Below, piece after piece: positions 2,180 through 45,525 of a stretch of 64,000 bases of DNA. The stretch is from Tortispora ganteri (Eukaryota). The stretch is taken from the NCBI GenBank assembly GCA_003707115.1, contig PPNB01000012.1, positions 1 to 64,000 on the forward strand, written 5' to 3'. Under the pieces are notes generated by a model that saw nothing but the letters and a program-made list of their open reading frames with translations, ran no database searches and was not told the origin of the DNA. Made by a program: the position numbers and the translations under genes. How positions within the stretch are numbered: position 1 is the stretch's first letter; every line of letters begins with the position of its first letter.

Positions 2180-2229
2180 AGAGAGCGATTGACGGCAAGA
2201 AGCGGCGCACAGTGCCTCTTTTAAATCTT

Positions 2230-3970: not shown

Positions 3971-4019
3971 TTCTCCCCACGCCCGCTGCACACTAGCAAT
4001 ATATAACTACAATAATAAA

Positions 4020-5831: not shown

Positions 5832-5884
5832 GGCGAGCAACTTGGGGGTAAAAGGTTGCGCCTCGCCCTTATATAACTGCTAGC

Positions 5885-7580: not shown

Positions 7581-7698
7581 CCATTCCCCTTCAATTCTCT
7601 CTCTCTCTCTCTCTCTCTCTGTTCCACACACTCCCTATTACATCACTGCCCTCTCCTACACCGGCCTCGATCCATCAATTTATAAATACAAAAACAAA

Positions 7699-9396
<1,698 letters not shown>

Positions 9397-12404: not shown

Positions 12405-13490
12405 ATGACTTACCCCGAAACAATTGATGCAGTCGGAGTTGTGGACTACGACAAGTGGCCAGTCCCTTCCAAATTCTCTTACAAGCCCAGAGATTTCCGC
12501 GAAAACGACGCTGATGTTCAAATTGACGCCTGCGCTATATGCGGTTCCGATATACATGCTGCTAATGGTTCTTGGGGCCGTCCTCACGCCCCTGTGGATG
12601 TAGGCCATGAAATCATTGGTAAAGTGGTGAAGGTAGGGTCCAAGGCATCAAGCAAATTCAAACTTGGCGATAGAGTGGGCGTAGGTGCACGATGATTCTA
12701 TTGCAAGAACTGTGATGCCTGCAACAGAGGGTTCGAGAATAACTGCCTAAACAAAGTATCAATGTACTTCGATATTAATAAAGAATCTGGTGTCCCGACA
12801 CAAGGTGGTGACGCCTCTCATATCCGTGCTGACGGAAACATGGTGTTCCAAATTCCTGACAGCTTGGAGACGAAATATGCCGCATCTCTGCTATGTGGCG
12901 GAATCACAGGATTCGCTCCCTTGTTGGATAACAATGAGACTTAAGGCACCAAAATTGGCATAGTGGGTATTTATGGAGTTGGCCATATGCAATTCTATTT
13001 GCTAAAGTTCTTGGAGCTGAGGTGACTGCAATTTCTAGTTCTCAAAGCAAAGAAGAAGATACAAAGAGGCTTCGAGCAGCCCACTATGTTGCCTCCAACG
13101 ATCCTGAAAGTTTGAGAGAACATAACGGTTCTCTTGATATCATTCTCAACACCACTTCTTCGCTATCGCAGAGTGCTATTGTACCTCTAGGTCTCAGTAA
13201 TTCGACAAGGGGTCCAATAGCACTGATTTCGTTCCCGCCAGCTGCCGAAAAATCGAACTCTCGGCTCCGACCTTGCTGTTATCCAATTTGACGTTAAAAT
13301 GATCTGCTCTTGATACACCTGAGCAGATTGAATTTGTATTGAACTTCGCTGCTGAAAATAATATCAAGCCTTGGGTTGAAACTTTCGATACAAACGAGAA
13401 GAATCTTGGCGAGGCCTAGGTGAATGTCGAATCAGGCAAGGTTAGGTACCGCGCAGTTATGACTGGTTTTGACAAATTCTTTGCCGATTC
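12405..13490 (+). pseudogene. ADH6: NADPH-dependent medium-chain (cinnamyl-type) alcohol dehydrogenase pseudogene, ADH6/ADH7-like
   Basis: MTYPETIDAVG..CAICGSDIH..GHEIIG..GDRVGVG, LLCGGIT, IKPWVE, GKVRYR. Broken by TGA (12693), TAA (12942), TAG (~13417) and frameshifts near 12990 and 13250-13300. Confidence 0.85.
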
Positions 13491-14159
13491 CCGTCAATAC
13501 TACGCATTTAACCGACTTCATTCGGTATTTGCAATCTTCACTTGTCTTTGTTTTCGTTCAATACATGAATATAACTTAGTTGTTAGAAGTTTGGTAGCTG
13601 GAATCTAATAATATTCCCTGTGTGGATTTGCTTGTCGTGTTGTTCTTCACACTAACTTATTAGCTTCGCGCGTTTGTAACCCAATCAGTCTCTTGACTGA
13701 CTTGTTTGGATCGTGAAGACCAAAATCAGATTGTGACCGTGCGTGACACCAATGTAATTATAGTCTAATAGCAATGCACCGCTTTCCAATTTGATATGCT
13801 ATACAGCGCGAAGATAGCAAACGCCTATTTCTCCTCAACAAGACGCAAGTTTCTCGCGGCCTGCGCATTTCAGATTTAGGGAGGCCCGACTGTCAAATGA
13901 TAGCACACCTTGCCTTTAGCAAATCACACTTTTATCTGAGACGCGTCAAAATTTATTATCTTGTGATAGCCGACAGGCAGGCACAACAGTAACAACTGGT
14001 ACCTCGATGTGCACGCTTTCAGTATGCAGCGATTCGTCGACGTTTGCCACATCTACAGCTGCAGGTACTGTTTCAGTTGATTTCCAATCGATAGCGACTC
14101 TGACAACCCTATTCGAGTACTGAATGCCAACAATTAAATGTTCCTAATTATTTTCAAAT

Positions 14160-14470
14160 TGCCCACTAGCACAGTAGGGTAATTAGCCCACCGATTATAG
14201 CGATCGGAGAGGGGTATCCGGATGAATTTGCCAGCCCTATTATCATCTCTATCCATACAGATGGACACTGACGGTAGAATAGAGTGATAGGGGACGGTTT
14301 TTGGGTCACATGATAAACGTAAACGGATCTCAGAAAGTGGGTGCTGATAGATAAGAAAGGTGGGTCGATAGCGCGGAGTGGGATGCTGATTATCCCACCT
14401 ATCAGTTGGCGAAGTTGGGAGAGAGCTTCTGTATGGCTGCAACGAATGCAGCATGGTACCTGCTCCCACT
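14160..14470. promoter_or_regulatory. Cluster of GTGGG/CCCAC motifs and GATAA sites upstream of the lactonase
   Basis: GTGGG/CCCAC at 14162, 14187, 14337, 14360, 14378, 14394, 14465. GATAA/TTATC at 14240, 14312, 14350, 14390. Confidence 0.55.
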
Positions 14471-14564
14471 CGCGGAAAGCCAGGCGGTTTCTATTAGGCC
14501 TTTCAGAGTTTTATATTTATGAGCGACTAATTCCCTCTTTGTCTTTCTCTTAACGCTACGTAAA

Positions 14565-15572
14565 ATGACAATCGATAAAGAAACCAAGCCGTGGTACGTT
14601 CTCGACAGACCTATGGTGCTCGGAGAAGGCCCTATATACCGGGAATCCGACCATACTTTGCATTATGTAGACTGTTTACATCAGCCTCCTCAGCTGCATA
14701 TATTGTCCTTAACTCCCGAAGGTGATGCTGTGCATCCCTCTACCGATCTGGCTAGCGCTTCTACTGAGAAAGTCAATGCGGACAAGCCTGGCCTTAGAGT
14801 GCTGAACCTAGAGGATTCAGTGACCGTCATGTTCTTCCGTAAGAACGTGCCAAAATCATATATTTGCCTGTATTATCAAGGTCTGGCCTTTTTAGATGAA
14901 GAAACGGGCAAGCTCGATGTCATCAAGGAAATCATTCCCACTAACGAGCGCCACATCAGGCGTTTTAACGACGGCGGTGTAGACGCCAAAGGTCGCATGT
15001 GGGCTGCCGAGATTGACGTGTACGCACTCGCTACCGGTCCTCATAATATAGACCCCAAAGAGCATCCAGAACTCCTCGGCAGACTCTGGTGTTATGACCC
15101 CAAGGACAGCAGCCTCAAGCTTATGGAGACTGGACTAGCTTGCGGAAATGGCCTCGCCTGGAGCCCAGACAACAAAGTCATGTACTTGAACGATTCTGCT
15201 AGCCAGAAGATATATTCTTACGACTTTGATTTGGAGACCGGTGCTATTAGCAACAAGAAGCTATTCTACGATGCTCGCGGAACCTCTGATGAGCCAGATG
15301 GTATGGTCGTAGACACTGAAGGCAACCTCTGGATCGCAATGTTCGGTGGAAGCAATATTTCTGTTATTAATCCCAAGGGTGAGCGCATTCGGGTTATAGA
15401 GATGCCTGCAAGAAACATGGCATGCACTACTTGGGGTGGACCAGGAAATCACATTCTTTACTCCGTTTCAGCGGTTGATAAGCTTCACCGCGACCCCAAT
15501 GACCAAGGTGGCCATCTGTTTAGAACTATTGTCGACGCAGAAGGAGTTACTAAGAATGAATACGACGGTTAG
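14565..15572 (+). CDS. SMP-30/gluconolactonase/regucalcin family lactonase
   Basis: LGEGP, RFNDGGVD, NGLAWSPD and PDGMVVD motifs; 335 aa. Confidence 0.9.
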   Translation: MTIDKETKPWYVLDRPMVLGEGPIYRESDHTLHYVDCLHQPPQLHILSLTPEGDAVHPSTDLASASTEKVNADKPGLRVLNLEDSVTVMFFRKNVPKSYICLYYQGLAFLDEETGKLDVIKEIIPTNERHIRRFNDGGVDAKGRMWAAEIDVYALATGPHNIDPKEHPELLGRLWCYDPKDSSLKLMETGLACGNGLAWSPDNKVMYLNDSASQKIYSYDFDLETGAISNKKLFYDARGTSDEPDGMVVDTEGNLWIAMFGGSNISVINPKGERIRVIEMPARNMACTTWGGPGNHILYSVSAVDKLHRDPNDQGGHLFRTIVDAEGVTKNEYDG

Positions 15573-16056
15573 CGTTTACAGTACAATGCTACACTATACT
15601 GTTCAATTGTATACTATACATGATTCGACTTTCAGCGATCGAGCTATAGTTTTCCAAATATGACAGTTATAGTTAATATATCACATATATGCAATATTTA
15701 AGTAAAAATTCTTACAATTTAGTACACTCCGCTATTTTTATGACCTGAAGTCTGTCGTATGACAATCTGACTCGTGTTATTATAGTTACCCTGCTTTACG
15801 GACACGTCTGAGTTTCTTAACTTGCCTCCACATCTGCCGTAATTCTTTGACCAGATCATTAGTTTACAACTGTTTAAGTCGACTAAGAACGTCATTTGCG
15901 TTATAATCCGCGGGCACACTTATCTAGAACGCAATAATAAGCTTGTATATACGTTGATTTCACCGGCTCCGGTCCACGGAGGTCAAATTCTTTTTTTTTT
16001 CTACCCGCCCTACCGACATTTCATCCTATTGTCACGGATGCTTTTTGCCGATCTAC

Positions 16057-18504
16057 ATGACAAATACGAGTTCTATCATGCAAACATCAGATAGTAGATT
16101 TTATTGTCACGTACCCGGTTGCCAGAAATCATTTGCTAGACGGGAGCATCTTAGGCGACATGCTCTTTGTCACGACCCACAGAACCAGTTATTCTGTGCG
16201 ATATGCGGCAAAAGGTTCTACCGGATGGACTTGAAGAGAAAGCACGAACGTAATCTTCACAACTACATATCCGATGAGCCTTTAAAGGCTCGAAAGAAAC
16301 GCTTATCACATCCCGAATCACTCGCAAATATACCGACATTGTTAAAAGTGACCAATAACCACAGCAGGTCGACTAGTCTTGAGACTCCAAAGGCCAGCGG
16401 CCATATTCCCTCTACAGATGCTAAACAGTTCCAAAAATCCGAGGAATCATCAACCATATCTGCTTCAGAGCCCGGATTAGCCTGCCTGACGTCTAATGTG
16501 CCTCAAACAACCATTCAGAACCGAAACTCGCAACAAAACCGCACCGTACACAGTCGAATACCCAATGAAATAGACACTATGGGTCTTTACGGAAAACCTT
16601 TTGGAGATTCATTTGGAGATCCCCATGCTATATCAGTTCTAGGTGAGTCACTACTAGAAGGCATATCCTTCGATGATAGCATAAGCTGGCTCTTCCAAAA
16701 CGAGGTAGATGATTCTCAGAGCTCTCGAAGCTCTGGCAGCAATGGCTCCACTCACACAATAAAACCAAGTGGAACAGATTACCCCCAGTATTCTCCCGAT
16801 ATTGACTTAACTAGAATTGAGACTCCGCGCGAGGCTCCAAATTCTGCGGATCTAGAAAACCAATGGATAAGCGTGTCTGAAAAAATTATTAAATGCTTGT
16901 TTGGAATTGATGCACAGGCCGGTGGCTCTCCGCTAGAAAGTCTAACTCTCTCTAATATATACTCAGATAATTTACTCAGAACGGACTTTTTTAACCCTGA
17001 AGTTTTGAGGCGGCACTTCGAGTTGTACTTTCAGAACTATCATGATCATTTTCCTATAGTTCATCAGCCATCCTTTCGAAAGCACCCTGAAGAAGTACAA
17101 CCATTGCTAATGGTTAGCATTATTACACTTGGTACTTCTTTCTCTCAAGACTATTTTAAGATATCTGTGGAGTTGCATGGTAGACTGCGTTTTCTAGTCT
17201 TAAGTCATCCGAAACTTACTCATCCGCCTTTATGGATTTTGCAATCCTTGCTGCTTATCCAAGCATTTGAGAAGATGCTTGGCCCGAGAGAGTTACATGA
17301 GCTTAGTACTACGTTTCATGGAGCTGTTGTGTCGGTATTACGTCGTGGACAACTGTCTGTTATGGAGCCTGAAACGATTGTTAGTCTTGATTTGGATACC
17401 ATCTGGAAAAAATGGATTGAAATAGAATCTACAAAGCGCGTTGTTTGCTTAGCGTTTATAATGGATGCTCAACATTCCGTACTATTCGGGCATAGGCCAA
17501 GCATGTCGGCCAATGAAGTTCAGGTGACACTGCCTTGCGCTGAGTATGTCTGGGAATACGAGACTGCCCACGAATGGTGGACAATGTTTGGCCAAGAAAA
17601 TACCTTTCAGAAGGCAGAACCGCTATTTCTGCACGCGTTGAAGTCTTTGTTGCAAAGAAGACCACTTAGCGCCAGTACTTCGGCGTTTAGCCGCCTCGTT
17701 CTTTTGCACGGCTTGTTCAGCGTTGCTTGGCAAGTACAGGAATACGATGCAGCCTCGCTAGGTATGAGTGAAATGACACATTCTAGTAGAGAAATGTGGA
17801 AAGACACCTTGTTAAGAGCCATTGATACCTGGTCATATAGCTTATTTGGTGGGCAGTCTCTTGGACTAGAAGTGTGCAAGGCTCTTTACCGAATATCTTA
17901 TGTTGCTTTGCATTTAACACGCACCAGTGTTATAGATATTCTTGTGTTTGCTGGGTACCCATCATTAGATGGCAGGCCGTTATGGAGACGAGATTATTTA
18001 CGCGCCAGTACCACGATCAAGGCTTGGGCTAGCAATAAGATAGAGGCGTTGAATTGCGTTCGACATTCACTACTTTTTATTCAGGAGACGATGTTTAGTA
18101 GTGGCCCCCTTCATTCTGAGGTGAATGGCTATCACACTGTGACCCAGTATTCCGCTGCCTCGGATAAAGTTGCATTACGTCCGTGGTGCCTGTTCCTCTG
18201 CCTATTATGCGTTTTGGCATATTGCGCCGCGAATGAAGGTAACATTGAGTTTGATGAGCCTCTGCGGAACTCATGGGTTGCAGGAGAAGAATACTCCTTA
18301 TATACTATTCAGAAGATTACACAATGGTTGGACTCTGATCGGGAGTCGGACATCAAGATCTGCGACCCGGACTTGCTGCAAGGGCTTTGCATTGCTGTGG
18401 TAGAGGCGTTAACCGGTACTAGATGGGAGCTATTAGAGGTCGCTGCTAACTGTGTGGACAGTTTAATTAGTAGTTGTCGACGCCGAAAGGTTAATGCAAC
18501 TTAG
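16057..18504 (+). CDS. Transcription factor with two C2H2 zinc fingers and a fungal-specific TF (Fungal_trans) domain
   Basis: CHVPGCQKSFARREHLRRHALCH and CAICGKRFYRMDLKRKHERNLH; LYFQNYHDHFPIVHQPSF and WKKWIEIESTKR motifs. First ATG at 16057. Confidence 0.9.
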   Translation: MTNTSSIMQTSDSRFYCHVPGCQKSFARREHLRRHALCHDPQNQLFCAICGKRFYRMDLKRKHERNLHNYISDEPLKARKKRLSHPESLANIPTLLKVTNNHSRSTSLETPKASGHIPSTDAKQFQKSEESSTISASEPGLACLTSNVPQTTIQNRNSQQNRTVHSRIPNEIDTMGLYGKPFGDSFGDPHAISVLGESLLEGISFDDSISWLFQNEVDDSQSSRSSGSNGSTHTIKPSGTDYPQYSPDIDLTRIETPREAPNSADLENQWISVSEKIIKCLFGIDAQAGGSPLESLTLSNIYSDNLLRTDFFNPEVLRRHFELYFQNYHDHFPIVHQPSFRKHPEEVQPLLMVSIITLGTSFSQDYFKISVELHGRLRFLVLSHPKLTHPPLWILQSLLLIQAFEKMLGPRELHELSTTFHGAVVSVLRRGQLSVMEPETIVSLDLDTIWKKWIEIESTKRVVCLAFIMDAQHSVLFGHRPSMSANEVQVTLPCAEYVWEYETAHEWWTMFGQENTFQKAEPLFLHALKSLLQRRPLSASTSAFSRLVLLHGLFSVAWQVQEYDAASLGMSEMTHSSREMWKDTLLRAIDTWSYSLFGGQSLGLEVCKALYRISYVALHLTRTSVIDILVFAGYPSLDGRPLWRRDYLRASTTIKAWASNKIEALNCVRHSLLFIQETMFSSGPLHSEVNGYHTVTQYSAASDKVALRPWCLFLCLLCVLAYCAANEGNIEFDEPLRNSWVAGEEYSLYTIQKITQWLDSDRESDIKICDPDLLQGLCIAVVEALTGTRWELLEVAANCVDSLISSCRRRKVNAT

Positions 18505-18693
18505 ATTTGCCTTTGTATTATTTATTCCGCGAGATATTAGCTTGAGTTGGAGACAATGGCGGTGTTGACAGAGGATTATGTGCAATATTTATTACAAATT
18601 ACTACTGAAGTATATGTATGGAGACGGTTGAACATTGAATAAGACGATTCATGCCAATAAGTGAAAGTGCTTAGCCGATCGATTACAAAAAAT

Positions 18694-19083
18694 TTAATCC
18701 TTCAAGGCAGCTGTGAGCTCAATTTCGACGTCGGTTCTTAGGGGCAAGTTTTTAACAGCTACGCAAGTCCTGGCGGGTTTGGGTTCGCCGAAGAACTCAC
18801 CATAGACCTCATTGACTTGAGCGAAGTTGTCAATGTCGTCGAGGTACACGTTGACCTTGAGGACATGATCCATGTCGCTGCCAGCGGCTTCAAGAACCGC
18901 AGAGAGATTCTTAAGGCATTGCCTAGCGCGGTCGGCAACAGTTCCGCTAACGATTTCGCGAGTGACAGGGTCGGCACCGGTCTGTCCAGAACAGTAGACA
19001 GTGTTTCCGTGCACAATAGCTTGGGAAAGCACAGGGATAGGGGCAGGAGCCTTATCGGTGAGAATAGCGCTTCTGGGAGACAT
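18694..19083 (-). CDS. RidA/YjgF/YER057c family imine/enamine deaminase
   Basis: APAPIPVLSQAI, VYCSGQ, KVNVYL, FAQVNEVYGEFF, PARTCVAV, DVEIE. ATG at 19083, TATAAAT ~50 nt upstream. Confidence 0.92.
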   Translation of the reverse strand: MSPRSAILTDKAPAPIPVLSQAIVHGNTVYCSGQTGADPVTREIVSGTVADRARQCLKNLSAVLEAAGSDMDHVLKVNVYLDDIDNFAQVNEVYGEFFGEPKPARTCVAVKNLPLRTDVEIELTAALKD

Positions 19084-19470
19084 ACTAACAGGTAAATCAG
19101 ATACAACCTTCGAGGCACGTCTGTGAGTATTTATAGCACCCTCGGAGTTCAGAATATTTGCAAAACAGCCATAAATGAAGGTAAGGGTTATATTCACAGA
19201 ACTTACAGTAATGCTGCTGCCTCTAATAATGGGGTCAAAAGGGCATGCTTCTGTTTTATTGGGTAGTTTGGTGGGATGTTAGTAAGGCTCCCCGGTCTGG
19301 GACGCCCACCTGTCATCTTACCTCCCACCACGGCCCGTCTACCGAATGGTCCGTGGGCCGTCTTATTGGGTTAGAATCTGCTTTTAGGCAGCGAGGCACT
19401 GAACTAAGGTGATATAAAAGAGCGAGACGATTTAATCTCTTCCTCCCTGCATCAAACAACGTCAAATATC

Positions 19471-20472
19471 ATGCCTTCCCCGCCATACCCTTTATCTCCC
19501 GAGATCATTCCTCTGCTCGACAAGCAGTACGAAGCCTTCTACAATAAGTACATTATCAACCAGCAACAGGTGCACTACCAACCTGTTGAGGCTTCTCGTA
19601 CGTCTGGAACGCTGATTCCTGGTGCGTCAGAGCCGCTAGAGGTTGCGTCTATCAAGGACTATTCCATTGAGCGCACCGAGACCGAAGGTCCTCCCGTCAC
19701 AGTTCGTGTGTTTACTCCTAAGGGAGACGCGCCCGAGGGTGGATGGCCTATTTTCCTATACATGCACGGTGGAGGATGGGTACTCGGAAACATTAACACC
19801 GAGAACGTTCATTGCACCTACTGGGCCAACAAAGGAGGATGCATCACTGTATCTGTAGACTACAGACTCGCTCCGGAGCACCCCTACCCGGCTGCCGTAG
19901 AGGACACCTGGGAGGCCTACAAATGGATTCTCGCTAATGGAAAGTCATTAGGTGGAAATGTCGACAAGATTGCCGCCGGAGGAAGTTCTGCAGGTGGAAA
20001 CTTGACAGCTGTGCTTACCCAGATGGTTGCCGAACGGTCTCTGGGCAAGATCATGTTCCAGGTGCTCATTGTGCCTGTTACCGACAACACTGCAGACGAG
20101 AGATACGAAAGCTGGAAAAAGTTTGGTGAGATAACACCGGCCCTACCTGCACCTAAAATGATCTGGTATCGTGTTCGTTATCTTCCTGACGAGGCTACTC
20201 GCACTGAGCCACATGCCTCTCCTATTTTTGGATCGGATGATATTTTAGCCCAGTGCCCTCCTGCCTTTTGTGCGTATGCCGGACTAGACGTGCTACGTTC
20301 CGAGGGTGAAGCATATGCTGCTAAGCTCCGCAAGGTCGGCGTACACACCGAGGAAAAGGTGTACGAAGGAGTTCCACACGTAGTTATGGCTATGAACGGT
20401 GTCCTTGATAAAGGCCAAGAGCTTGTTGATGACGTCTGTGCTAAATTGCACCAAGCATTCTATGGCGCCTAA
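19471..20472 (+). CDS. Alpha/beta hydrolase, HSL-like (Abhydrolase_3) esterase/lipase
   Basis: HGGGW oxyanion motif, YRLAPEHPYPAA, GSSAGG nucleophile, DVLRSEG Asp, GVPH His. Confidence 0.92.
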   Translation: MPSPPYPLSPEIIPLLDKQYEAFYNKYIINQQQVHYQPVEASRTSGTLIPGASEPLEVASIKDYSIERTETEGPPVTVRVFTPKGDAPEGGWPIFLYMHGGGWVLGNINTENVHCTYWANKGGCITVSVDYRLAPEHPYPAAVEDTWEAYKWILANGKSLGGNVDKIAAGGSSAGGNLTAVLTQMVAERSLGKIMFQVLIVPVTDNTADERYESWKKFGEITPALPAPKMIWYRVRYLPDEATRTEPHASPIFGSDDILAQCPPAFCAYAGLDVLRSEGEAYAAKLRKVGVHTEEKVYEGVPHVVMAMNGVLDKGQELVDDVCAKLHQAFYGA

Positions 20473-20589
20473 TAAACTAACAACAATTTACTGATTAGTT
20501 TAGTAGCGCCCAGTAAATATAGATGAATAGAACGACAGTGCCTACATTAAAGACGTATTGTACTCATTGTGCCTGAAGCCGCTGGGGAG

Positions 20590-21210
20590 TTACCCCCACC
20601 ACATTTAGACAGCCAAAACATCATAGCTTGTGGTTTCATAAAAAACTTAAAATCTCCCATTAGATAATATGACGTTCGCTAGTTAATTAAAGCTGTACGA
20701 TTCGCTATACTGTCTCTGTATTTGTGAGTCCTGCGAGCGCAAATTGCGCCTGTCATTTTACAGAGCATAGGATCACTGATTCGACAGCTTCTCCTTATCA
20801 AACCCACTCTGGTCCCCAAATAACAGATAAGATAGCACGGTTGCATGCGTGTTTATTTTGAGTGATTATACACGGAGCTGTTATCAATGGTCTATCTGCA
20901 ATAGCGATAATATTGAGCAATACGAAGGGCTCGAGTTTAATGAGCTCCCACCTAAGGTGGGATAACTTTAAATACTGATAATTGCTACTATTGGATGACC
21001 GGCTAGGTAGGTGGGATGATCACCCTTCACATCCCGCCCAAATCATTGTGTCACACTTTTCACCGCACTTCTTTCCAATAAGTCTAAGGTGCCATGCTCC
21101 TAAATCAAAGACATCACTTAGATTTTTCATAATTATCTGTTTATTAGGTGGGCGCACTTTATTGCGATCTGCACTCGCTCACTATCGGTAATTTGTGTGG
21201 GATGATAAGA
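20590..21210. promoter_or_regulatory. GATA-rich promoter with repeated GTGGG(A) motif, including the palindrome TCCCACCT-A-AGGTGGGA (20946-20962)
   Basis: About 9 GATAA/TTATC (20663, 20795, 20826, 20881, 20906, 20961, 20977, 21133, 21204) and 7 GTGGG/CCCAC (20595, 20803, 20947, 20957, 21011, 21148, 21197). Confidence 0.6.
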
Positions 21211-21301
21211 CAGTCTTGCCTCGTTTTACCCCAGTCGTATCTTGTATATATATAATTTATTGTGCCCGTCAAGTGCAACACCAGCAGTACAGTTAATCAA
21301 A

Positions 21302-22915
21302 ATGGGGTTCAAGTCCTTCGTCAAGCGCTTTGAACTTCCCGCTACCCGTCTTCAAAATGAGGACTTGCTTCCCACGCCGCCCGAAAAGATGACATGGACT
21401 TGGTTCAACTTTTTCATGTACTGGTTTTCCGAATCTTGGGCCATCTCTACCTGGACGCTCGGAAGTTCTCTCATGACCACTGGTGGTATGAAGAGTTATG
21501 AGTGTATCATTTGTATCTTCTTTTCAAATCTCATCATTTCTTTGCTCGTCGTCTGCAACGGAAGAGCTTCTGCCATGTACCACATCGGTTTCCCTGTTCT
21601 TGGACGTGTGTCCTTTGGAATATACGGTACTTATTTCATCGTCATAATGCGTGCTATGCTTGGTATTATCTGGTGCTCTGTCCAAATGTTTTTCTTAGGT
21701 CAGTTCATCGCTGTTATCCTCCGCGTCATTTTCCCCAGTTTCCACACAATGCAAAATCACATCCCTCTCAGCCAGGACGTTACTGTCCAGGAAATCACTG
21801 GTTTCTTCATCGCTTTTGCCATCACGCTGCCGTTCATGTTCATCCCTCATTACAAGGTCAGACATCTTTTCTCCGTGAAAGGTGCCCTAGTACCGTTTGC
21901 GGGTCTTGGTCTAGTCATCTGGTCTTGCAAACTTAATGGTGGAGCTGGTTCTCCTGATGCCCTCGTGAACTGGACTATCCGAAACAGTGGAACTACCACT
22001 TTTGCCTTCTCTGTACTCGGTCAGATGAACAGTATCTTTGGTGCTTCTTCTGCTTTAGTCGTTACCGTTCCTGATTTGGCCCGTTACTCCAATAGACCTT
22101 GGGCTCAGCTCTGGGGCCAAATTCTCGCCCTTCCCGTTGCTCAGACAATTTGCGCAGCTTTCGGTATCATCACAACCTCTGCTCTATATGAATACTATGG
22201 CGAAGCATACTGGGACCCTTACACCATGTTCAATGGTATCCTTGATCACAGTTACACCCCTGCCTCTCGTGCTGGCATCTTTTTTGCTGCTTTTTTCTTT
22301 GCCTTTGCTACCCTTGGAACAAGTATTGCCTGCAACATTGTTCCTTTCGCTGCCGATGCTACATGTCTCTGGCCTAAATATATCAATATTATTAGAGGCC
22401 AGTTCATCTGCATTTTTATTTCCCTCGGAACTGTTCCGTGGAAAATCCTGCGTGATGCTACCACTTTCTTGAACTTCTTAGGAGGATACAGTATCTTCCA
22501 GGGACCTGTTGTTGGTATTTTCGTTATTGACTATATAATGCGCCGGGGCAATATTGATGTCAACCATCTATACCATACTCAATCTGACGGCCCCTACTGG
22601 TATAAGAAAGGAGTTAATTGGAGAGCCATCGCCGCTTTTTTTATTGGCTTCATACTTCCATTCCCAGGTTTCTGTGCTACTTTAGCCGAATCAACTGGTA
22701 TTGCGGTAGGTGGATTCAGATTATTCGATTTGGGATACCTTCTTTCCGTGGTAATGGGCGCACTGAGTTACTTTTGCGTGTCATACTATTTTAAGCTTCC
22801 TCAGGTAGATTTCACGGCTCCTATAGAAGTCAATGCCAAAATGGTTATGGATTTTTCATCGGAAGAGGATCCCGAGCGCGCGTCGCCGGCTGTTGATTCC
22901 AAACCCGAATTATGA
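21302..22915 (+). CDS. NCS1 family (Fur4/Dal4-like) nucleobase/allantoin/hydantoin permease
   Basis: NEDLLPTPPEKMTWTW, YHIGFPVLGRVSFGIYG, PDLARYS, PKYINIIRG, GVNWRA; about 12 hydrophobic segments. ATG at 21302. Confidence 0.92.
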   Translation: MGFKSFVKRFELPATRLQNEDLLPTPPEKMTWTWFNFFMYWFSESWAISTWTLGSSLMTTGGMKSYECIICIFFSNLIISLLVVCNGRASAMYHIGFPVLGRVSFGIYGTYFIVIMRAMLGIIWCSVQMFFLGQFIAVILRVIFPSFHTMQNHIPLSQDVTVQEITGFFIAFAITLPFMFIPHYKVRHLFSVKGALVPFAGLGLVIWSCKLNGGAGSPDALVNWTIRNSGTTTFAFSVLGQMNSIFGASSALVVTVPDLARYSNRPWAQLWGQILALPVAQTICAAFGIITTSALYEYYGEAYWDPYTMFNGILDHSYTPASRAGIFFAAFFFAFATLGTSIACNIVPFAADATCLWPKYINIIRGQFICIFISLGTVPWKILRDATTFLNFLGGYSIFQGPVVGIFVIDYIMRRGNIDVNHLYHTQSDGPYWYKKGVNWRAIAAFFIGFILPFPGFCATLAESTGIAVGGFRLFDLGYLLSVVMGALSYFCVSYYFKLPQVDFTAPIEVNAKMVMDFSSEEDPERASPAVDSKPEL

Positions 22916-23559
22916 AAATGCACCTGGATGTATAAAAGGTAGTAAATTCGTTGTTATGTATTCTTTGTTTTTGAGTCTTCTCTTTAGATGTAGATGCTAT
23001 TTTTCAATAACGACTTATTTTCTTGTTTCTGCTACATGCAACCTGCAGGTAGTTTACCAACTTTCTGATCATATGCAAACAACTTAATTGTTTGTTATTG
23101 GCTGCTGGTGGGTAGATCCATATAACTTAATGCGGAGTAAAGCTATACTGTTAGCTTAGAATCTAAGAAAACTGAGTATACCCGCGTTCCATAATTCATG
23201 GTTTCAGCTTTTAACAAGTACACCCAATCCAGCGCAGAAATTTCGAAATACGCAACCAGTTGACACAACGGGAAAAGCAATGCCGAAAACTAGGTAGTAA
23301 ATTTCTTTTCCTCAACAAGTCCGTTTATTTGTCTTATAGGGAGTTCTCTACTAGAGTTTGAAAGAAGTTTCACCCAGATGTGGGGGTAAAACAATGTTTC
23401 TTTGCATCAAGCTGCTCAAAGCAGCGACTCCGTGCTGCATCATATATATATTTTATATAGGTCAGCGGAATGAATTTTAGCAGATTGTTTTAAAATTCGT
23501 ACCGAGGCGCCTTGGCGGTGGTAATATCCTGTGGCTCAAAATCGAGATGTGCGACAGCT

Positions 23560-24353: not shown

Positions 24354-25340
24354 AAGTAACGTCATGGAATTGCCATAGTAACGAGTATTAAAAGTTTCTT
24401 GAAAAGTTAATTAAGTGTGAGGACTAACATTGTGAACCAAGAAAATTATATTTTAACAGTGCAGTTTACATTGGATTGACGTTTTCAATGATTGAAATGA
24501 CATACAATTACTATTTTAATGTGAATTATGCGTATTATGTGATATAGTTGAAGTGATTTCAGATATAACCATACAAAATGCCAAGAAGACTATGTGATGA
24601 TTTACGGAGAACGTGAGAGTGATGCCACAAGAGGCGAAGTGACAAGAAGCATTTTGTTGCAGTTTGGTTTCAAAAGTTGCTCATGCAAAATTAACAGTAT
24701 CAATGTGGATCAGGATCTTACTTAATTTTGATATGTGTCCTGTTTTTCCATTCCGTGCCTAACTGGTTGGCATGCACAACTACGACTTCTGCATCGTATT
24801 CGTAAATTTATTCGAATAATTAAACAAGGTGAATCGTGCCAAGACGAATGGCTGGTCTCTTTATCGTTCGAATCTTAGTGCCTGCCTAAAATGGCATCGT
24901 TAGTCTGTGACACACTACTAATCCGAACCGGTATCAGAACCTTGCCATACTTATTTTGCTGTCAGCGCACGAATGAAATACAAACAACCACGTATGCATC
25001 CGATGATCAGCGGATAATAGTGATATAAAGCAGATTGTATCGCGCCATGTGTTGGCCTTCTGAATTCGCATCTAGTTCAGAACAACTGGTTTAAACGTGT
25101 ACAACTGTGAGGTGATATCGTACGATTATAAAGTTACCGCACGGCATAGGAGACTTGTGTTTCTGTTATCCTTAATAGGAAGTGTTATATCGACCAGTGG
25201 AAATCTAGTCCTCACAGAGTTGATAGGTCGGGTAGTTACACAACTTTCACCATTGTACGGCTGAACAGATTTAATAGCTATATAAATGTGCAGCACTTCT
25301 TCAGATGCCCAGTGATCTTCTCTTATTCGGCAATATAACT

Positions 25341-26165
25341 ATGGCTCAAGCGAATTCATCTGGAAACAAGTATCTGGATAAAGATATCGAGGCGTTACGT
25401 GCAGTTAATACTGCAGGAACTCTGCCCCCAGAAATCTTTGAACGCCTTTACTATCAACCAAAACCAAACAATGACAGCTCATTGAGACACAAGTTAGGTG
25501 TTCCAACAGGTCTGGCTATACTTCTGTATACATTGAACTTTTTTTTTATGTCATTTGTTCTGCTAGGGTGGAGAAATGCTGGAGCAGATGGAGCTGCAAT
25601 GGTTGGTACTTTTCCCGCAGTTGGAATTGCAGGAATAATTGTCGCGATATTTGAGCTTATACTTGGCAATTCCTTCATTTTCACTGTTCTTATGGCTTAT
25701 GGCGTGTTCTTTATGGCGTTTTCTTCCACCTTGATTCCATGGTTTGGTGCAAAGGCGGCCTACTCTGCTGTAGGAGATCCGATTGCGGGAGGCGCGACAG
25801 AGCAGTACATTGCAACCTGTGCAATGTATTTTATAGCGTGGGCTATTATCTCGCTAGTTCTTTTTGCTGGTGCTCTTATGGTGAATGCGGTCTTGACGGT
25901 GTTTCTTTTCTTAGTATTTGTGGTGTTTCTGCTGCTAGGGTTGGGTGGCTTGTACGGCGCCAGCGGCAATTTAGGAGCTATGTCAGGCCTGACACGGTCA
26001 GCTGGTGCTCTTGCGTTTGTGGATGGCTGCATAGGACTTTATCTTGCATTTATGAACGTCATGATATCTGTAGGTGTTTCTCCTATTCACTTCCCGGTCG
26101 GTGATCTCACCATTTACTGGGCATCTAAGAGGGGTGGTCATACTGACATTGAGAATACAATGTGA
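25341..26165 (+). CDS. GPR1/FUN34/YaaH (ATO/SatP) family membrane protein, AlcS-like
   Basis: TLPPEIFERLY, LGVPTGLA (variant of NPAPLGL/NPTPL), FELILGNSF; six hydrophobic segments. Alternative ATG at 25305. Confidence 0.85.
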   Translation: MAQANSSGNKYLDKDIEALRAVNTAGTLPPEIFERLYYQPKPNNDSSLRHKLGVPTGLAILLYTLNFFFMSFVLLGWRNAGADGAAMVGTFPAVGIAGIIVAIFELILGNSFIFTVLMAYGVFFMAFSSTLIPWFGAKAAYSAVGDPIAGGATEQYIATCAMYFIAWAIISLVLFAGALMVNAVLTVFLFLVFVVFLLLGLGGLYGASGNLGAMSGLTRSAGALAFVDGCIGLYLAFMNVMISVGVSPIHFPVGDLTIYWASKRGGHTDIENTM

Positions 26166-27360
26166 GAACCGAAGATAATACCGTCACTGGCTAAACTCAG
26201 GGTCTATTAAGGGATTATAGAGAAGGTGGGATACGATTTCACGCAAACGGCCTTTATTCGTTAAGCTATGCTACTTGAACATTTATTGGCAGTATACGCA
26301 GTACGCTGTAAATAGTGTCTTCGTAGCCACGCCTGCTAATACTTATCAAAGAGCCATCAGATTCACTCACATAACGTGCAGATACGTTGATTGGCTACAG
26401 TTCTTTGATTACGGGTGCTTCATTGCAGTGCATCATGAATAAGGTTATTTCGAACGCCCGGCGATCATTTCGAACACTGATTAAAGGCAGGGTATCCTTA
26501 TGTTTAAGCCGAGAAAACATTGCAAGATCTAATGTCTGTGATATATAATACCAGTATGCTAATTTTAGCAGCAGATTTGCTGCTAATTTGCGTGATAGTG
26601 CTGTTTTGAAAGAATATTTTTCCCGGAAGTACGGACAGAGATCATTACCCCACTGTAAGGAAACTTTGTTTTTTTTTTCTCCACAACCTCCTGACAAGGA
26701 GCGTCTTCGTCAATATAACAATTACAGCGGCAGCGAACGTGTATTTTTGACCGAAGAGTAGCCTTGATGACTTATTAATTATACTGGTATATTTTTTTTT
26801 AAAATTTTTGGGGCAGGATTCAGTCATTGATTATCGAAAGTCGTCGATACGGTGATTGCCGTGTGATTTTTTCTAAAAGTTAAACTGGAATAAAGGTTTA
26901 AACTTCTCGGAAGAGAGTCATGAGATCTCCATTGAGATGCCGTCTATTTTCCGCAATGGAACTTCACGGGAATAAAAACGAGCTTAGGATGCTGAAGGAC
27001 GAGATATTGACCGCTAGAAAAGATGCAATTAATCTGCTGTGTGTTTATTGATGGATAATTGCTGATAATCTCACTAGGGGGAACTATGTAGCTGTTATTA
27101 CGCTGAGCTCAATGAGGTGCTGCTGCTTATATTGGCCAATTTCTCTGAAAAACAAGCAGCCTTTTACTGTTGTGCATTTGCATTTCAATTCACTAATTGG
27201 AGCCACTGCCAGCGACATAGTGTCATTTATACGTGCGTTAGTCCGAGAATAAGTGGGGCACTTGATTTAGGTTCATTGACTCCTCATATTAACTGTGCGG
27301 AGAGCATATAGTATAAATATGCCTTTTTTTAGTTGTTTCAGGCAATTAATATTTTGCACA

Positions 27361-28188
27361 ATGAATATGAACGACGATACCCACTCAGGAAATGGATATT
27401 CCGACAAAGATGCTCAAGAACTTCGCGCCACAAACACCGTACACACTATTCCACCTGAGATTTTCGAGCGTCTCTACTACCAACCCAAGCCCAACAATGA
27501 CAGCACATTAAGACACAAACTTGGTGTTCCTACCGGTTTAGCTGTTATGATGTATACATTGAACTTTGGCTACATTGCCATCTGCCTCATGGGCTGGAGA
27601 GGAGCTGGAGGTGGAGGAGCTGCAATGGTCGGCACTTTCATTTCAGTTGCCTTTGTTGGTATAATAGTTGCTGTTTTCGAGCTAATTCTTGGTAACTCTT
27701 TTATTTTTACTGTTCTGATGTCGTATGGTGTATTTTACTTGTCATACGCTTCTACTGTTATTCCTTGGTTTGGAGCTAAAGCTGCTTATTCTGCTACCGG
27801 TGATGCTATCGAAGGCGGATCTTCACCGAGCTATATGGTGACTTGTGCGATGTTTTTTGTTTTGTGGGGAGTGGTGTCCCTTATACTGACAGCAGGTGCT
27901 CTCATGGTCAACTTTTTTCTAACCTGTTTCCTTTTCCTCGTTTTCCTTGCTTTCTGCATACTGAGTGCTGGATACTTCTACGCGGCCTCCGGAAACATCG
28001 CCGCTTTGCAAGATTATTCGGTCGCTGCTGGCGCTGTTGCGTTTGCTGCTGCTTGTTTTGGTCTGTATCTATCTATCATGAATGTCATGATATCAGTGGG
28101 TGTTCCGCCTACTTACTTCCCTGTAGGAGACTTCACTTCCTTCTGGGCTAAAAGAATTCGCCCCAAAGATATTGAGAACACAATGTAA
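27361..28188 (+). CDS. GPR1/FUN34/YaaH (ATO/SatP) family membrane protein, AlcS-like, tandem paralog
   Basis: Same motifs as 25341-26165 and the same DIENTM C-terminus. Confidence 0.85.
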   Translation: MNMNDDTHSGNGYSDKDAQELRATNTVHTIPPEIFERLYYQPKPNNDSTLRHKLGVPTGLAVMMYTLNFGYIAICLMGWRGAGGGGAAMVGTFISVAFVGIIVAVFELILGNSFIFTVLMSYGVFYLSYASTVIPWFGAKAAYSATGDAIEGGSSPSYMVTCAMFFVLWGVVSLILTAGALMVNFFLTCFLFLVFLAFCILSAGYFYAASGNIAALQDYSVAAGAVAFAAACFGLYLSIMNVMISVGVPPTYFPVGDFTSFWAKRIRPKDIENTM

Positions 28189-28930
28189 AACAAGAGGCTG
28201 GTTTCAATTGCTCCATACAATGCTTTGCATCTATGCTATATATTGGTCTGATGGCAGAAATGGGTAAAATGGTATTTTTACTTGGTGATGGATAGCATCA
28301 CAGTTTTACCATCACGGTGAGTTTAATTAACTGAAATTATAAGGAACAGAATGAATCATGTGTAACGTTAAAATAATACCGTTGATTAGTGATTTTATAG
28401 CATAATAGGCTGATCGAACAATTAACTGCGTGAAGGAGTCTTCAAGCTAGCTAATAAGTGTGCTAAGCAGATCAGAATGCAAGTCATGTTAATGAATGAT
28501 ATTAAATTTTAGCTATCATTTATTTGTAAAGTACGGATTTATTGCCAAAAAGCAGTAAAAGTTGTAGATTTGTAATATGGAAAAGGTTAAATGCCAAGAC
28601 ATTTTGTCACTTGAGAGTTACAACGACCCAACCTTATTTGGAATCACACCAGAGATAGCTTATAAGTGTTTTGAGTATGTATTGTATATTCAGCGGTTAT
28701 CAGAAAACTTAAAAAACTATTCCAAGACTTGTCAGTCAAATTTTACTATTCAAGAAGAGCTTGGAATAATGTTTAAAATGCAATATAAAAAACTGCAACC
28801 CGGTACACCATCTACGTTAACTGTTAGTTAATCTCAACTATTATATATTCTGTACGTAGCAAACTTCCAGAAGTAAAGACATAAGCAATACTGCAATCTA
28901 GAATAACTTGCATTTGAAAGACTAAACTTG

Positions 28931-33119: not shown

Positions 33120-33299
33120 TGTATTTGCTTTCTGCGTCGACAAAGTCGTAAACGACTATATATATATATATACATGCGCTAAGAGGGGTCTAAATTCCAA
33201 GTATATACCGAAACCAGCTCCGGATCAAACGACATACACCTGTCTAAAGAAGGCAGAAAAAGGCGTGGGCACGCAAATCTAAGTTTCCTAAACGGTTAG

Positions 33300-34115: not shown

Positions 34116-34339
34116 TAGCTCAGTCAGTATACTGAATTTGTATTCAAGTTTCAGGTAGCATGACCGTAACGTACAATATGAGAGCAATATGTAAACTTTG
34201 ATATTATCTATATAGCCGAATTACTGAGGTAGAAAGTCTTGTTGCTATTATCCGAAAAAAAAATACCAAGTTATCTACTCTCCTTGTTTCACTACCATTC
34301 CTGGTTCAGCGTAATCCCGATTGGCGACCTGCCATACCA

Positions 34340-45433: not shown

Positions 45434-45525
45434 TAGGATGTGCGTGGCGGCGGGGGGTGTCTGTGTGGTAGAGTGTAAGTTTTTCGCCCGACGACCCACG
45501 CAAACTTCGACATCCACTTAGCGCC

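What the first reader, a model, noticed from the sequence alone, without database searches (positions are those of the whole stretch)
14160..22915. Self-contained five-gene catabolic cluster of unknown substrate (lactonase, C2H2 TF, RidA, esterase, NCS1 permease)
Seen: five contiguous intact genes giving uptake, two hydrolases, an enamine/imine deaminase and a regulator. GATAA sites are dense upstream of the permease (~9) and lactonase (~4). Known: GATA sites mediate nitrogen catabolite repression; NCS1 carriers import N-heterocycles; RidA removes reactive enamines (cf. RutC in bacterial pyrimidine catabolism); C2H2 + Fungal_trans regulators control clusters such as A. nidulans hxn (HxnR). Inference: an uncharacterised pathway releasing nitrogen from a cyclic N-compound by ring hydrolysis then deamination. 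It does not match the DAL, URC, PYD or hxn gene sets.
Basis: partly seen in the sequence, partly recalled or inferred. Interest (0 to 1): 0.72.

Follow-up and report, generated by a model that had tools for sequence, protein, structure and literature searches.

The report
Conserved fungal uptake-and-hydrolysis gene cluster
Five neighbouring yeast genes (a transporter, two hydrolases, an imine deaminase and their likely regulator) form a gene cluster that recurs in distant fungi and probably breaks down a still unknown small ring-shaped compound.

Summary
Five intact, intronless genes lie at 14565-22915: an SMP30/SGL lactonase, a 2xC2H2+Fungal_trans regulator, RidA, an Abhydrolase_3 esterase and an NCS1 permease. 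GATAA counts are as stated: 9 upstream of the permease, the densest spot in the window, and 4 upstream of the lactonase, which is weak.

The window comes from a close relative of Tortispora caseinolytica. Chance neighbourhood is excluded for four of the genes:
- Esterase and permease lie 1-4 gene models apart in 6 of 6 named genomes checked, from Saccharomycotina, Eurotiomycetes and Sordariomycetes.
- Regulator and permease are adjacent in Pyricularia.
- Cirrosporium has lactonase and regulator in the same order, merged into one gene model.
- Kwoniella has esterase and lactonase as a single gene model.

RidA's linkage outside Tortispora could not be tested.

A new cis-element, AGGTGGGAT, places 11 of its 30 core copies in the three enzyme and permease promoters, which make up 2.8% of the window. 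It overlaps the site predicted from the regulator's zinc fingers.

No bacterial counterpart, no RNA data and no publication were found. The substrate is unknown. My best reading is a regulator-gated, nitrogen-repressed import and two-step hydrolysis of a hydantoin/uracil-like compound, with RidA quenching an imine product.

The parts
14160..14564 (.). Lactonase promoter. It holds 4 GATAA sites (14240, 14312, 14350, 14390) and GGTGGG cores at 14187(-), 14359(+) and 14394(-).
   Evidence: In the sister species laid, the stretch 14284-14498 shows 20 substitutions, but the block 14332-14405, which holds two GGTGGG and three GATAA sites, shows only 1.
14565..15572 (+). SMP30/gluconolactonase/LRE-type hydrolase (lactonase), 335 aa
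   Evidence: Pfam SGL at 190 bits. The four metal/catalytic residues are aligned to regucalcin. It is 58% identical to the N-terminal part of Cirrosporium P0098. The subfamily is small: 64 representatives at E<=1e-30 among 1.84 billion.
16057..18504 (+). Pathway regulator: two N-terminal C2H2 zinc fingers plus a Fungal_trans domain, 815 aa
   Evidence: Only 8 Fungal_trans-bearing homologues were found. The DNA-reading residues of both fingers are conserved in Tortispora and Pyricularia, and those of finger 2 also in Cirrosporium.
18694..19083 (-). RidA enamine/imine deaminase, 129 aa
   Evidence: Pfam at 133 bits. TIGR00004 is above its cut-off, while the RutC equivalog scores 61 bits against a cut-off of 169. 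The arginine of P-A-R-T is kept.
19084..19470 (.). Bidirectional RidA/esterase promoter with three GGTGGG cores (19270+, 19305-, 19324-) and no GATAA
   Evidence: In the sister species, indels at 19302, 19304 and 19307 disturb the 19305 site.
19471..20472 (+). Family-IV (hormone-sensitive-lipase type) alpha/beta hydrolase, 333 aa
   Evidence: Pfam Abhydrolase_3 at 220 bits. HGGG and GSSAG motifs are present. Many PDB esterases match at E down to 5e-52. It lies near the permease in 6 of 6 named genomes checked.
20473..21301 (.). Permease promoter. It holds 9 GATAA sites and 5 GGTGGG cores (20595, 20947, 20956, 21010, 21147), including the perfect palindrome TCCCACCTAAGGTGGGA at 20946-20962.
21302..22915 (+). 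NCS1 (Fur/allantoin-uracil type) permease, 537 aa
   Evidence: Pfam at 301 bits. In the Mhp1 alignment W117, Q121 and N318 are kept as W124, Q128 and N, while Q42 becomes A and W220 becomes S. The orthogroup of 42 tree rows follows fungal taxonomy.

Best explanation
The five genes are one regulated catabolic (nutrient-scavenging) unit of a Tortispora yeast, and the unit is old and widely but patchily kept in fungi. The proposed working is as follows. The NCS1 permease is kept off by nitrogen catabolite repression through its GATA-rich promoter. When derepressed, it imports a small polar ring compound of the hydantoin/uracil/allantoin shape. The C2H2+Fungal_trans regulator binds AGGTGGGA(T) sites in the lactonase, RidA/esterase and permease promoters and switches them on, presumably when the substrate or a product is present. 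The lactonase and the esterase carry out two consecutive hydrolytic steps on the same molecule, a cyclic ester or amide bond and an acyl bond. RidA hydrolyses the resulting enamine/imine to a 2-oxo acid and ammonium. That both yields nitrogen and removes a reactive intermediate, which would also explain why the genes stay linked. What is shown: gene integrity, the protein families, the catalytic residues, conserved linkage of four genes, and motif enrichment. What is inferred: co-regulation, the order of steps, the nitrogen yield and the nature of the substrate.
For: Linkage.
- Regulator and permease carry consecutive or near-consecutive accessions or locus tags in T. caseinolytica (ODV88500/ODV88503), Cirrosporium (KAI9739741/KAI9739740) and four Pyricularia species (for example MGG_04865 next to XP_003712344; PspLS_02493/02494).
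- Esterase and permease lie 1-4 models apart in T. caseinolytica, Kuraishia capsulata (KUCA_T00002501001/2504001), Talaromyces stipitatus (EED14071/EED14067), Xylariales sp. PMI_506, Stachybotrys elegans and Cirrosporium. That is 6 of the 6 named genomes in which both hits shared a contig length.
- Cirrosporium P0098 is lactonase (58% identity) followed by the regulator (34%) in one gene model, the same order and strand as here.
- Kwoniella mangroviensis has Abhydrolase_3+SGL in one model in 3 of 3 strains, and a Logan fragment shows the same junction.
- A sister species carries the whole 14020-22925 stretch collinearly on one contig.

Regulation.
- 11 of the 30 GGTGGG cores lie in 1,781 bp (2.8% of the window) of the three promoters. 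Only 3 of 500 random intergenic triples reach that score.
- The finger residues are R-1/E2/H3/R6 and R-1/D2/L3/K6, and they are conserved in orthologues. By the canonical C2H2 code, which I recall and did not test, they predict GTG-GGG, which overlaps the motif.
- The permease promoter holds the GATAA maximum of the window.

Chemistry.
- The hydrolases and RidA have intact active-site residues.
- The permease keeps the Mhp1 ligand residues W117, Q121 and N318.

Evolution.
- The permease tree follows taxonomy, with yeasts at 95, Pezizomycotina at 93 and Tremellomycetes at 100 SH-aLRT, so the unit is not a recent import.
Against: - No substrate is known and no expression data exist; no RNA run is listed.
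- RidA's presence in the cluster outside Tortispora is not shown. It rests only on one unidentified gene model sitting in the matching position in Cirrosporium.
- There is no oxidoreductase, amidohydrolase or amidase of the kinds that open N-heterocycles in known pathways. SGL and Abhydrolase_3 enzymes mostly hydrolyse O-lactones and O-esters.
- GATAA enrichment is limited to one promoter, and 2 of the 13 sites are part of the other motif.
- The regulator's own promoter has no GGTGGG core.
- In the sister species the 19305 site is hit by indels.
- The motif test weakens to 25 of 500 when coding repeats are allowed as controls.
- The esterase is not always linked. The best Pyricularia grisea esterase (MCOR25_007988) is far from the permease (MCOR25_005163). 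The listed esterases of Thozetella, Emmonsiellopsis and Phialocephala lie on contigs of other lengths. The one metagenome locus fetched (L001, 52% identity) has none of the other four genes within 10 kb.
- Linked esterases do not form one clade in the tree.
Confidence: 0.5

Rival explanations
1. The cluster is a salvage or detoxification unit rather than a nitrogen-yielding pathway. It takes up a vitamin-like or nucleoside-like compound, or a lactone/ester-bearing antimetabolite, and the two hydrolases convert it to a usable or harmless form. RidA only protects PLP enzymes from a side product.
For: Fur-type NCS1 carriers of yeast include thiamine and nicotinamide-riboside importers (recalled knowledge). 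Both hydrolase families are typical O-ester and lactone hydrolases. No ring-opening amidohydrolase is present. The conserved core seen in other fungi is permease, esterase, lactonase and regulator, without proven RidA.
Against: The permease promoter is the GATA-densest place in the window, which fits nitrogen control. Detoxification would be expected to use an exporter, not an importer. RidA shares a motif-bearing bidirectional promoter with the esterase.
Confidence: 0.2
2. The lactonase and esterase serve carbon catabolism of ketones together with the two Baeyer-Villiger monooxygenases 6-10 kb downstream. A ketone is oxidised to an ester or lactone, which is then hydrolysed to acid and alcohol, and the two acetate-channel (GPR1/FUN34/YaaH) genes handle the acid. 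In this reading the permease and RidA are bystanders.
For: Two FMO-like genes (28931-30544 and 31494-33119, minus strand) match the PtlE Baeyer-Villiger enzyme at E 1e-54. Two GPR1/FUN34/YaaH genes lie between them and the cluster. One AGGTGGGAT site lies at 26224 between the two channel genes. One of the 80 bacterial SGL loci also has a BVMO nearby.
Against: Conserved linkage elsewhere joins the hydrolases to the permease and the C2H2 regulator within 4-5 consecutive models, which leaves little room for BVMOs. The BVMO promoters carry a single non-consensus GGTGGG core (30725). The BVMO block has its own Zn2Cys6 regulator at 34340-36310.
Confidence: 0.1
3. The five genes are neighbours by chance in a gene-dense yeast genome and share no function.
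For: Each family is common in fungi. The region is a variable, accessory part of the chromosome, with repeat-rich wall-protein genes, a pseudogene, tandem duplicates and a retroelement remnant.
Against: The same linkages, and two kinds of merged or fused gene models, recur across Saccharomycotina, Pezizomycotina and Tremellomycetes. A motif is shared by three promoters.
Confidence: 0.03

Closest known systems
Aspergillus nidulans hxn nicotinate-catabolism clusters with regulator HxnR (recalled; no paper was read here)
   Same: There is a pathway-specific regulator with two N-terminal C2H2 fingers and a Fungal_trans domain. Transporter and enzyme genes are clustered. Nitrogen-source logic with GATA-factor input applies.
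   Different: There are none of the hxn enzyme types: no hydroxylase, flavin monooxygenases, cyclic imidase or amidase appears in the window. The carrier is NCS1, not MFS. Orthology of the regulator to HxnR was not tested, and no Aspergillus protein appeared among the 12 hits.
Saccharomyces cerevisiae DAL allantoin cluster (recalled)
   Same: An NCS1 permease of the allantoin/uracil type, under GATA-mediated nitrogen catabolite repression, is clustered with hydrolytic enzymes.
   Different: No allantoinase, allantoicase, ureidoglycolate lyase or malate synthase family is present. No S. cerevisiae protein appeared among the 95 permease hits, so close kinship to Dal4, Fur4 and related carriers is not indicated.
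Escherichia coli Rut pyrimidine pathway, lower part (RutC + RutD)
   Same: A RidA-family protein is paired with an alpha/beta hydrolase to dispose of an aminoacrylate-type intermediate and release ammonium. A nucleobase-type carrier is encoded in the same unit.
   Different: RidA scores 61 bits against the RutC equivalog cut-off of 169. The hydrolase is Abhydrolase_3, not the RutD type. No RutA, RutB or RutF equivalents are present. None of the 80 prokaryotic loci around the nearest SGL homologues holds an NCS1, RidA or Abhydrolase_3 gene.
Bacterial hydantoin utilisation with the Mhp1 permease
   Same: Mhp1 is the only solved relative of the permease (E 2e-13). Its ligand-contact residues W117, Q121 and N318 are conserved here.
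   Different: Q42 and W220 of Mhp1 are not conserved. No hydantoinase or carbamoylase is present.
Baeyer-Villiger monooxygenase plus esterase/lactone-hydrolase ketone pathways of bacteria (recalled)
   Same: An Abhydrolase_3-type hydrolase and a lactonase lie within 10 kb of two BVMO genes.
   Different: The conserved partners of the hydrolases in other fungi are the permease and the C2H2 regulator, not BVMOs.

Membership tests
SMP30/gluconolactonase/LRE (SGL, PF08450) | Profile match above the curated cut-off | tested here: met
   190.1 bits against 26.3
SMP30/gluconolactonase/LRE (SGL, PF08450) | Metal and catalytic residues E18, N103, N154 and D204 of regucalcin (the role of these residues is recalled) | tested here: met
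   They align to E21, N135, N195 and D245 and are invariant in 13 of 13 homologues.
RidA subfamily of YjgF/YER057c/UK114 | TIGR00004 above cut-off, and the active-site arginine present | tested here: met
   147.6 bits against 106.25. The arginine of P-A-R at residue 105 aligns with the P-A-R of PH0854.
RutC (pyrimidine utilisation protein C) | Equivalog model TIGR03610 above cut-off | tested here: not met
   61.1 bits against 169.1
Family IV / hormone-sensitive-lipase esterases (Abhydrolase_3) | Profile match, an HGGG oxyanion motif and a G-x-S-x-G nucleophile motif | tested here: met
   219.9 bits. HGGG at residue 99 and GSSAG at 171-175. No NCBIfam equivalog is reached: LipP1 scores 259 against 350.
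NCS1 nucleobase:cation symporter-1, Fur (uracil/allantoin) type | Profile match, and homologues named as allantoin or uracil permease | tested here: met
   PF02133 at 301 bits. TIGR00800 scores 333, just under its 353 cut-off. The homologues' names come from their sources. The substrate was not tested.
HxnR-type regulator (C2H2 x2 + Fungal_trans) | Domain architecture | tested here: met
   Two canonical fingers at residues 17 and 47. Fungal_trans at 151 bits.
HxnR-type regulator (C2H2 x2 + Fungal_trans) | Orthology to A. nidulans HxnR | not tested
   No HxnR sequence was available from a tool. No Aspergillus hit appeared among the 12.
DAL, URC, PYD and hxn catabolic gene sets | Presence of their signature enzymes next to the carrier | tested here: not met
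   Pfam scans of 36 of the 37 listed window ORFs of 120 aa or more show none of these enzyme families. The signature gene sets are recalled.
Fungal catabolic gene cluster (co-regulated, conserved linkage) | Linkage conserved across distant species | tested here: met
   Searches show it for permease, esterase, lactonase and regulator. For RidA it is not testable with these tools.
Fungal catabolic gene cluster (co-regulated, conserved linkage) | Co-expression under one regulator | not testable with these tools
   No RNA run is listed. The only evidence is the shared promoter motif.

The most novel reading that the evidence does not exclude
This is an ancient pathway, predating the split of budding yeasts and filamentous ascomycetes. 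It has survived as a physical cluster for hundreds of millions of years because its intermediate is a reactive enamine. It would be a purely hydrolytic eukaryotic route for a hydantoin/pyrimidine-like ring compound: permease, then lactonase-type ring opening, then deacylation, then RidA. It would have no bacterial counterpart, would use a dedicated zinc-finger regulator reading AGGTGGGAT, and the two hydrolases would be fused into one protein in Kwoniella.
Probability: 0.15. Interest if true: 0.8.

Novelty: new variant of a known kind. Interest (0 to 1): 0.58.

Why it matters
Fungal catabolic clusters with their own regulator have repeatedly revealed complete new pathways (nicotinate, allantoin, uracil). 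This one is compact and intronless in a yeast, and it is conserved from yeasts to rice-blast fungus relatives, black yeasts, dermatophyte relatives and Kwoniella. It also comes with a predicted regulator site. Pathway discovery is therefore directly testable: overexpress the regulator, screen nitrogen sources, and assay three small soluble enzymes. If RidA is a true member, this would be a eukaryotic example of clustering that guards against a reactive enamine intermediate. If the substrate is a common plant, soil or host metabolite, it would fill a gap in fungal nitrogen scavenging.

Tried and rejected
- **Whole genome.** None is held for this window, so paralogues such as a second RidA could not be counted.
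- **Earlier findings of the scan.** Five look-ups by place, relatives, words and sequence gave nothing.
- **Metagenome contigs.** The esterase found one locus (L001, 52% identity) with none of the other four genes within 10 kb. Its whole contig could not be searched.
- **Prokaryotic genomes.** The first alignment was too diverse. A 5-sequence alignment gave 80 loci with SGL homologues at 26-38% identity. None of the 80 has an NCS1, RidA or Abhydrolase_3 gene within 10 kb, and 1 of 80 has a BVMO. There is therefore no bacterial operon model and no hint of operon transfer.
- **RNA evidence.** No RNA holder is listed.
- **Laying a sister species' contigs.** The output listed only the first 40 of 752 substitutions. 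Footprinting was possible only for the lactonase promoter, and that block (1 change in 74 bp against 20 in 215 bp) is suggestive, not significant after allowing for the choice of block.
- **ESM Atlas.** It returned only generic SGL and RidA clusters.
- **Literature.** The searches were: MGG_04865/MGG_04864; allantoin permease + gluconolactonase + gene cluster + fungal; NCS1 + RidA + lactonase; Fur transporters/NCS1/A. nidulans; Tortispora caseinolytica + gene cluster; and AN8242. None gave a paper on this cluster. Only listings and abstract openings were seen, and no paper was read.
- **Esterase tree.** Linked esterases fall in at least three subclades among rows whose linkage is unknown, so the tree neither proves nor refutes a single origin.
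- **Horizontal transfer into Tortispora.** This is not supported by the permease tree.
- **Specific substrates.** I considered allantoin, uracil, hydantoins, creatinine, pyridoxolactone, acyl-homoserine lactones, benzoxazolinone and oxidised amino sugars. None is supported by any result, so I name none.
- **Carbon catabolite repressor sites.** I recall the consensus as SYGGRG. It fits only 1 of the 11 cluster GGTGGG sites (20595), so the motif is not simply a Mig1/CreA site.

Full report
**What is in the sequence**

Read with the standard code, the stretch holds five uninterrupted ORFs:
- 14565-15572(+), 335 aa
- 16057-18504(+), 815 aa
- 18694-19083(-), 129 aa
- 19471-20472(+), 333 aa
- 21302-22915(+), 537 aa

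Pfam assigns them, in that order, to:
- SMP30/gluconolactonase/LRE (SGL)
- Fungal_trans, with a sub-threshold zf-C2H2 hit
- Ribonuc_L-PSP (RidA)
- Abhydrolase_3
- the NCS1 permease family

The regulator has two canonical C2H2 fingers at residues 17 and 47.

The enzymes look active:
- The lactonase residues E21, N135, N195 and D245 align with regucalcin E18, N103, N154 and D204. They are invariant in 13 of 13 aligned homologues.
- The esterase has HGGG and G-S-S-A-G motifs.
- RidA passes the TIGR00004 cut-off but not the RutC equivalog, and it keeps its arginine.
- The permease aligns with the hydantoin carrier Mhp1. It keeps W117, Q121 and N318 but not Q42 or W220.

**GATA sites**

- The window as a whole is not enriched (165 observed, 151 expected).
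- The permease promoter has 10.9 sites per kb against 2.7 per kb for intergenic DNA. The Poisson probability is 6e-4 for one of 26 real intergenic regions, and the promoter contains the densest 829-bp stretch of the window.
- The lactonase promoter is only weakly enriched (P=0.026).
- The RidA/esterase promoter has none and the regulator promoter has one.
- Two of the 13 sites are the tail of GGTGGGATAA composites.

**Whose genome, and is the cluster found elsewhere**

The proteins are 91-98% identical to those of Tortispora caseinolytica NRRL Y-17796. The window therefore comes from a close relative of it.

DNA of other fungi could not be fetched, so I used the order of accession numbers and locus tags that the protein searches returned.
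- **Regulator and permease** are consecutive or near-consecutive in T. caseinolytica (ODV88500, ODV88503), in Cirrosporium novae-zelandiae (KAI9739741, KAI9739740) and in four Pyricularia species. Examples are MGG_04865 beside XP_003712344, MCOR25_005162/5163, PpBr36_03231/03230 and PspLS_02493/02494.
- **Esterase and permease** lie one to four models apart in all 6 named genomes in which both hits sat on a contig of the same length. These are T. caseinolytica, Kuraishia capsulata, Talaromyces stipitatus, Xylariales sp. PMI_506, Stachybotrys elegans and Cirrosporium.
- **Lactonase and regulator:** the Cirrosporium model next to the permease is 978 aa. It consists of a lactonase 58% identical to ours followed by the regulator (34%), the same order and strand as here.
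- **Esterase and lactonase:** a search of 1.84 billion representatives with the lactonase found a small subfamily, with 64 representatives at E<=1e-30. Within it are a Kwoniella mangroviensis model carrying Abhydrolase_3 and SGL in one protein, present in 3 of 3 strains, and an unnamed fragment with the same junction.
- **Contig-length coincidences:** two unnamed contigs (53,570 and 13,915 bp) are the longest contig listed for both a permease and an esterase relative. This is weak support.
- **Sister species:** its contig covers 14020-22925 collinearly at roughly 90% identity.

**Results against linkage**
- The best-listed esterases of Pyricularia grisea, Thozetella, Emmonsiellopsis and Phialocephala are not near the permease. 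Only the best 120 of 7,145 esterase hits were listed, so a linked copy may simply be missing from the list.
- The one metagenome locus fetched has an esterase (52% identity) and none of the other four genes within 10 kb.
In Cirrosporium exactly one unidentified model sits where RidA sits here.

**Evolution**

The permease tree has 54 rows: 53 of the 95 hits plus the window. Fragments and near-duplicates were dropped.
- It recovers an orthogroup of 42 rows (SH-aLRT 99).
- The orthogroup splits into budding yeasts (10 rows, 95), Tremellomycetes (6 rows, 100) and Pezizomycotina (26 rows, 93).
- This follows taxonomy. Nothing suggests a recent transfer into Tortispora, and the unit looks old and often lost.
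- The placement of the Kwoniella group beside Pezizomycotina (83), away from the other basidiomycete rows, leaves an old transfer possible there.

The esterase tree has 55 rows.
- It separates a yeast clade (16 rows, 87) from a Pezizomycotina-plus-Cystobasidium clade (38 rows, 96).
- Stachybotrys elegans has both a linked copy and an unlinked paralogue in different subclades.

None of 80 prokaryotic loci around the nearest SGL homologues holds an NCS1, RidA or Abhydrolase_3 gene. There is no bacterial model for this unit.

**A shared promoter element (new)**

A k-mer comparison of the four promoters gave CATCCCACC / GGTGGGATG words in three of them.
- The core GGTGGG occurs 30 times in the window, against 14.7 expected; 0 of 100 shuffles reach that count.
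- 11 of the 30 lie in the lactonase, RidA/esterase and permease promoters, which together make 1,781 bp or 2.8% of the window.
- The sites read roughly AGGTGGGA(T). They include a perfect palindrome, TCCCACCTAAGGTGGGA, at 20946-20962.
- In a permutation test that picks the best 6-mer each time, 3 of 500 random triples of intergenic windows reach the observed score. When coding repeats are allowed as controls, 25 of 500 reach it.
- The regulator's own promoter has no copy.
- One further AGGTGGGAT lies at 26224, between two downstream channel genes.

The base-reading positions of the fingers are R-1, E2, H3, R6 and R-1, D2, L3, K6. They are kept in T. caseinolytica and Pyricularia, and those of finger 2 also in Cirrosporium. 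By the canonical C2H2 recognition code, which I recall and did not test, they predict GTG-GGG. That shares five contiguous bases with the enriched core. This fits the regulator binding the element but does not prove it.

In the sister species, 14284-14498 carries 20 substitutions. The 74-bp block 14332-14405, with two of the cores and three GATAA sites, carries one. This is suggestive only. The 19305 site is disturbed by indels there.

**How it most likely works**

*Shown:*
- The genes are intact.
- The catalytic residues are present.
- Four genes are kept together across subphyla.
- Two kinds of merged or fused models join lactonase to regulator and esterase to lactonase.
- A motif is shared by the three structural-gene promoters.
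- The permease promoter is GATA-dense.

*Inferred:*
- The regulator activates the three promoters through AGGTGGGA(T).
- GATA factors keep the permease off when good nitrogen is available.
- The permease imports a hydantoin/uracil/allantoin-shaped compound.
- Lactonase and esterase act one after the other on it.
- RidA hydrolyses an enamine or imine product to a 2-oxo acid and ammonium.

I put 0.5 on this overall reading. I put about 0.8 on the narrower claim that permease, esterase, lactonase and regulator are one functional unit, and about 0.6 on RidA belonging to it.

*Weak points:*
- No substrate is known.
- No expression data exist.
- No classical ring-opening amidohydrolase is present.
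- Both hydrolase families usually act on O-esters and lactones.

**Rivals**
- **Salvage or detoxification (0.2).** This reading fits the hydrolase families. It fits the GATA-rich importer promoter less well.
- **Ketone catabolism with downstream genes (0.1).** Two Baeyer-Villiger monooxygenase genes and two GPR1/FUN34/YaaH genes lie 2-10 kb downstream. Ketone to ester or lactone to acid is chemically attractive. However, the conserved partners elsewhere are the permease and the C2H2 regulator, and that block has its own Zn2Cys6 regulator.
- **Chance neighbourhood (0.03).** This is contradicted for four genes.

**Comparison with known systems**

The unit works like the hxn and DAL clusters: a pathway-specific regulator or nitrogen-repressed NCS1 carrier sits beside catabolic enzymes. 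Its RidA plus alpha/beta-hydrolase pair recalls RutC/RutD.

It is a member of none of them:
- Their signature enzymes are absent from the window.
- RidA fails the RutC model.
- The esterase is of another alpha/beta-hydrolase family.

Six literature searches found no description of this gene set. Only listings were seen, and supplements were not consulted.

**Verdict**

This is a real, conserved and apparently undescribed fungal gene cluster with a candidate regulator site. Its substrate and chemistry remain open. It is a new variant of a known kind (fungal catabolic clusters). Interest is moderate to good, because it is compact and directly testable.

Noticed in passing
window 12406-13420 (+): A decayed medium-chain (zinc) alcohol dehydrogenase gene lies 1.1 kb upstream of the lactonase. 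ADH_N and ADH_zinc_N Pfam hits fall on three ORF pieces. It has in-frame stops at 12693-12695 and 12942-12944 and then a frame shift. It may be a lost sixth member of the cluster (a dehydrogenase making the lactone) or unrelated.
   Followed up: partly
window 25305-36310: This may be a second accessory block. It holds two paralogous GPR1/FUN34/YaaH channel genes (25305-26165 and 27319-28188, +) and two paralogous Baeyer-Villiger-type flavin monooxygenases (28931-30544 and 31494-33119, -; PtlE match at 1e-54). A Zn2Cys6 regulator lies at 34340-36310 (+). One AGGTGGGAT site lies at 26224-26232.
   Followed up: partly
window 1-9200 (minus strand ORFs 2-2179, 4020-5831, 7699-8874): Three serine-rich ORFs without any Pfam family carry 6-, 12-, 18- and 24-bp tandem arrays (129-1167, 4522-4832, 8235-8568). 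They look like repeat-rich cell-wall or adhesin-type genes, and the region has a strong GC skew (-0.30 at 8-10 kb).
   Followed up: no
window 39168-41225 (-): A 685-aa ORF has only RNase H-like reverse-transcriptase domains. It is a retroelement remnant at the border between the accessory left part and the housekeeping right part of the window (RRP4, DAD1, NF-YB, kinase, chitin synthase and others).
   Followed up: no
window 14390-14400 and 20955-20965: Composite sites occur in which the new motif and a GATA core overlap (GGTGGGATAA). Some sites counted as GATAA may therefore belong to the other element, or the two factors may compete or cooperate there.
   Followed up: partly
P0251, P0400, P0401 (Kwoniella mangroviensis, three strains); P0098 (Cirrosporium): Single gene models join esterase to lactonase (Kwoniella) and lactonase to regulator (Cirrosporium). 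Whether these are true fusion proteins or merged annotations is open. In P0251 the esterase part ends and the lactonase part begins within about 10 residues.
   Followed up: partly
window 44988-46611: Two ORFs on opposite strands overlap by about 520 bp: a CBS-domain ORF at 44988-46046 (-) and a WD40 ORF at 45526-46611 (+). The CBS domain lies outside the overlap, so the minus-strand gene probably starts later or has an intron.
   Followed up: no
permease tree: Penicillium nucicola and Aspergillus lucknowensis permeases sit inside a Sordariomycete clade (support 96-100). This hints at transfer of the permease, or of the whole cluster, within Pezizomycotina.
   Followed up: no
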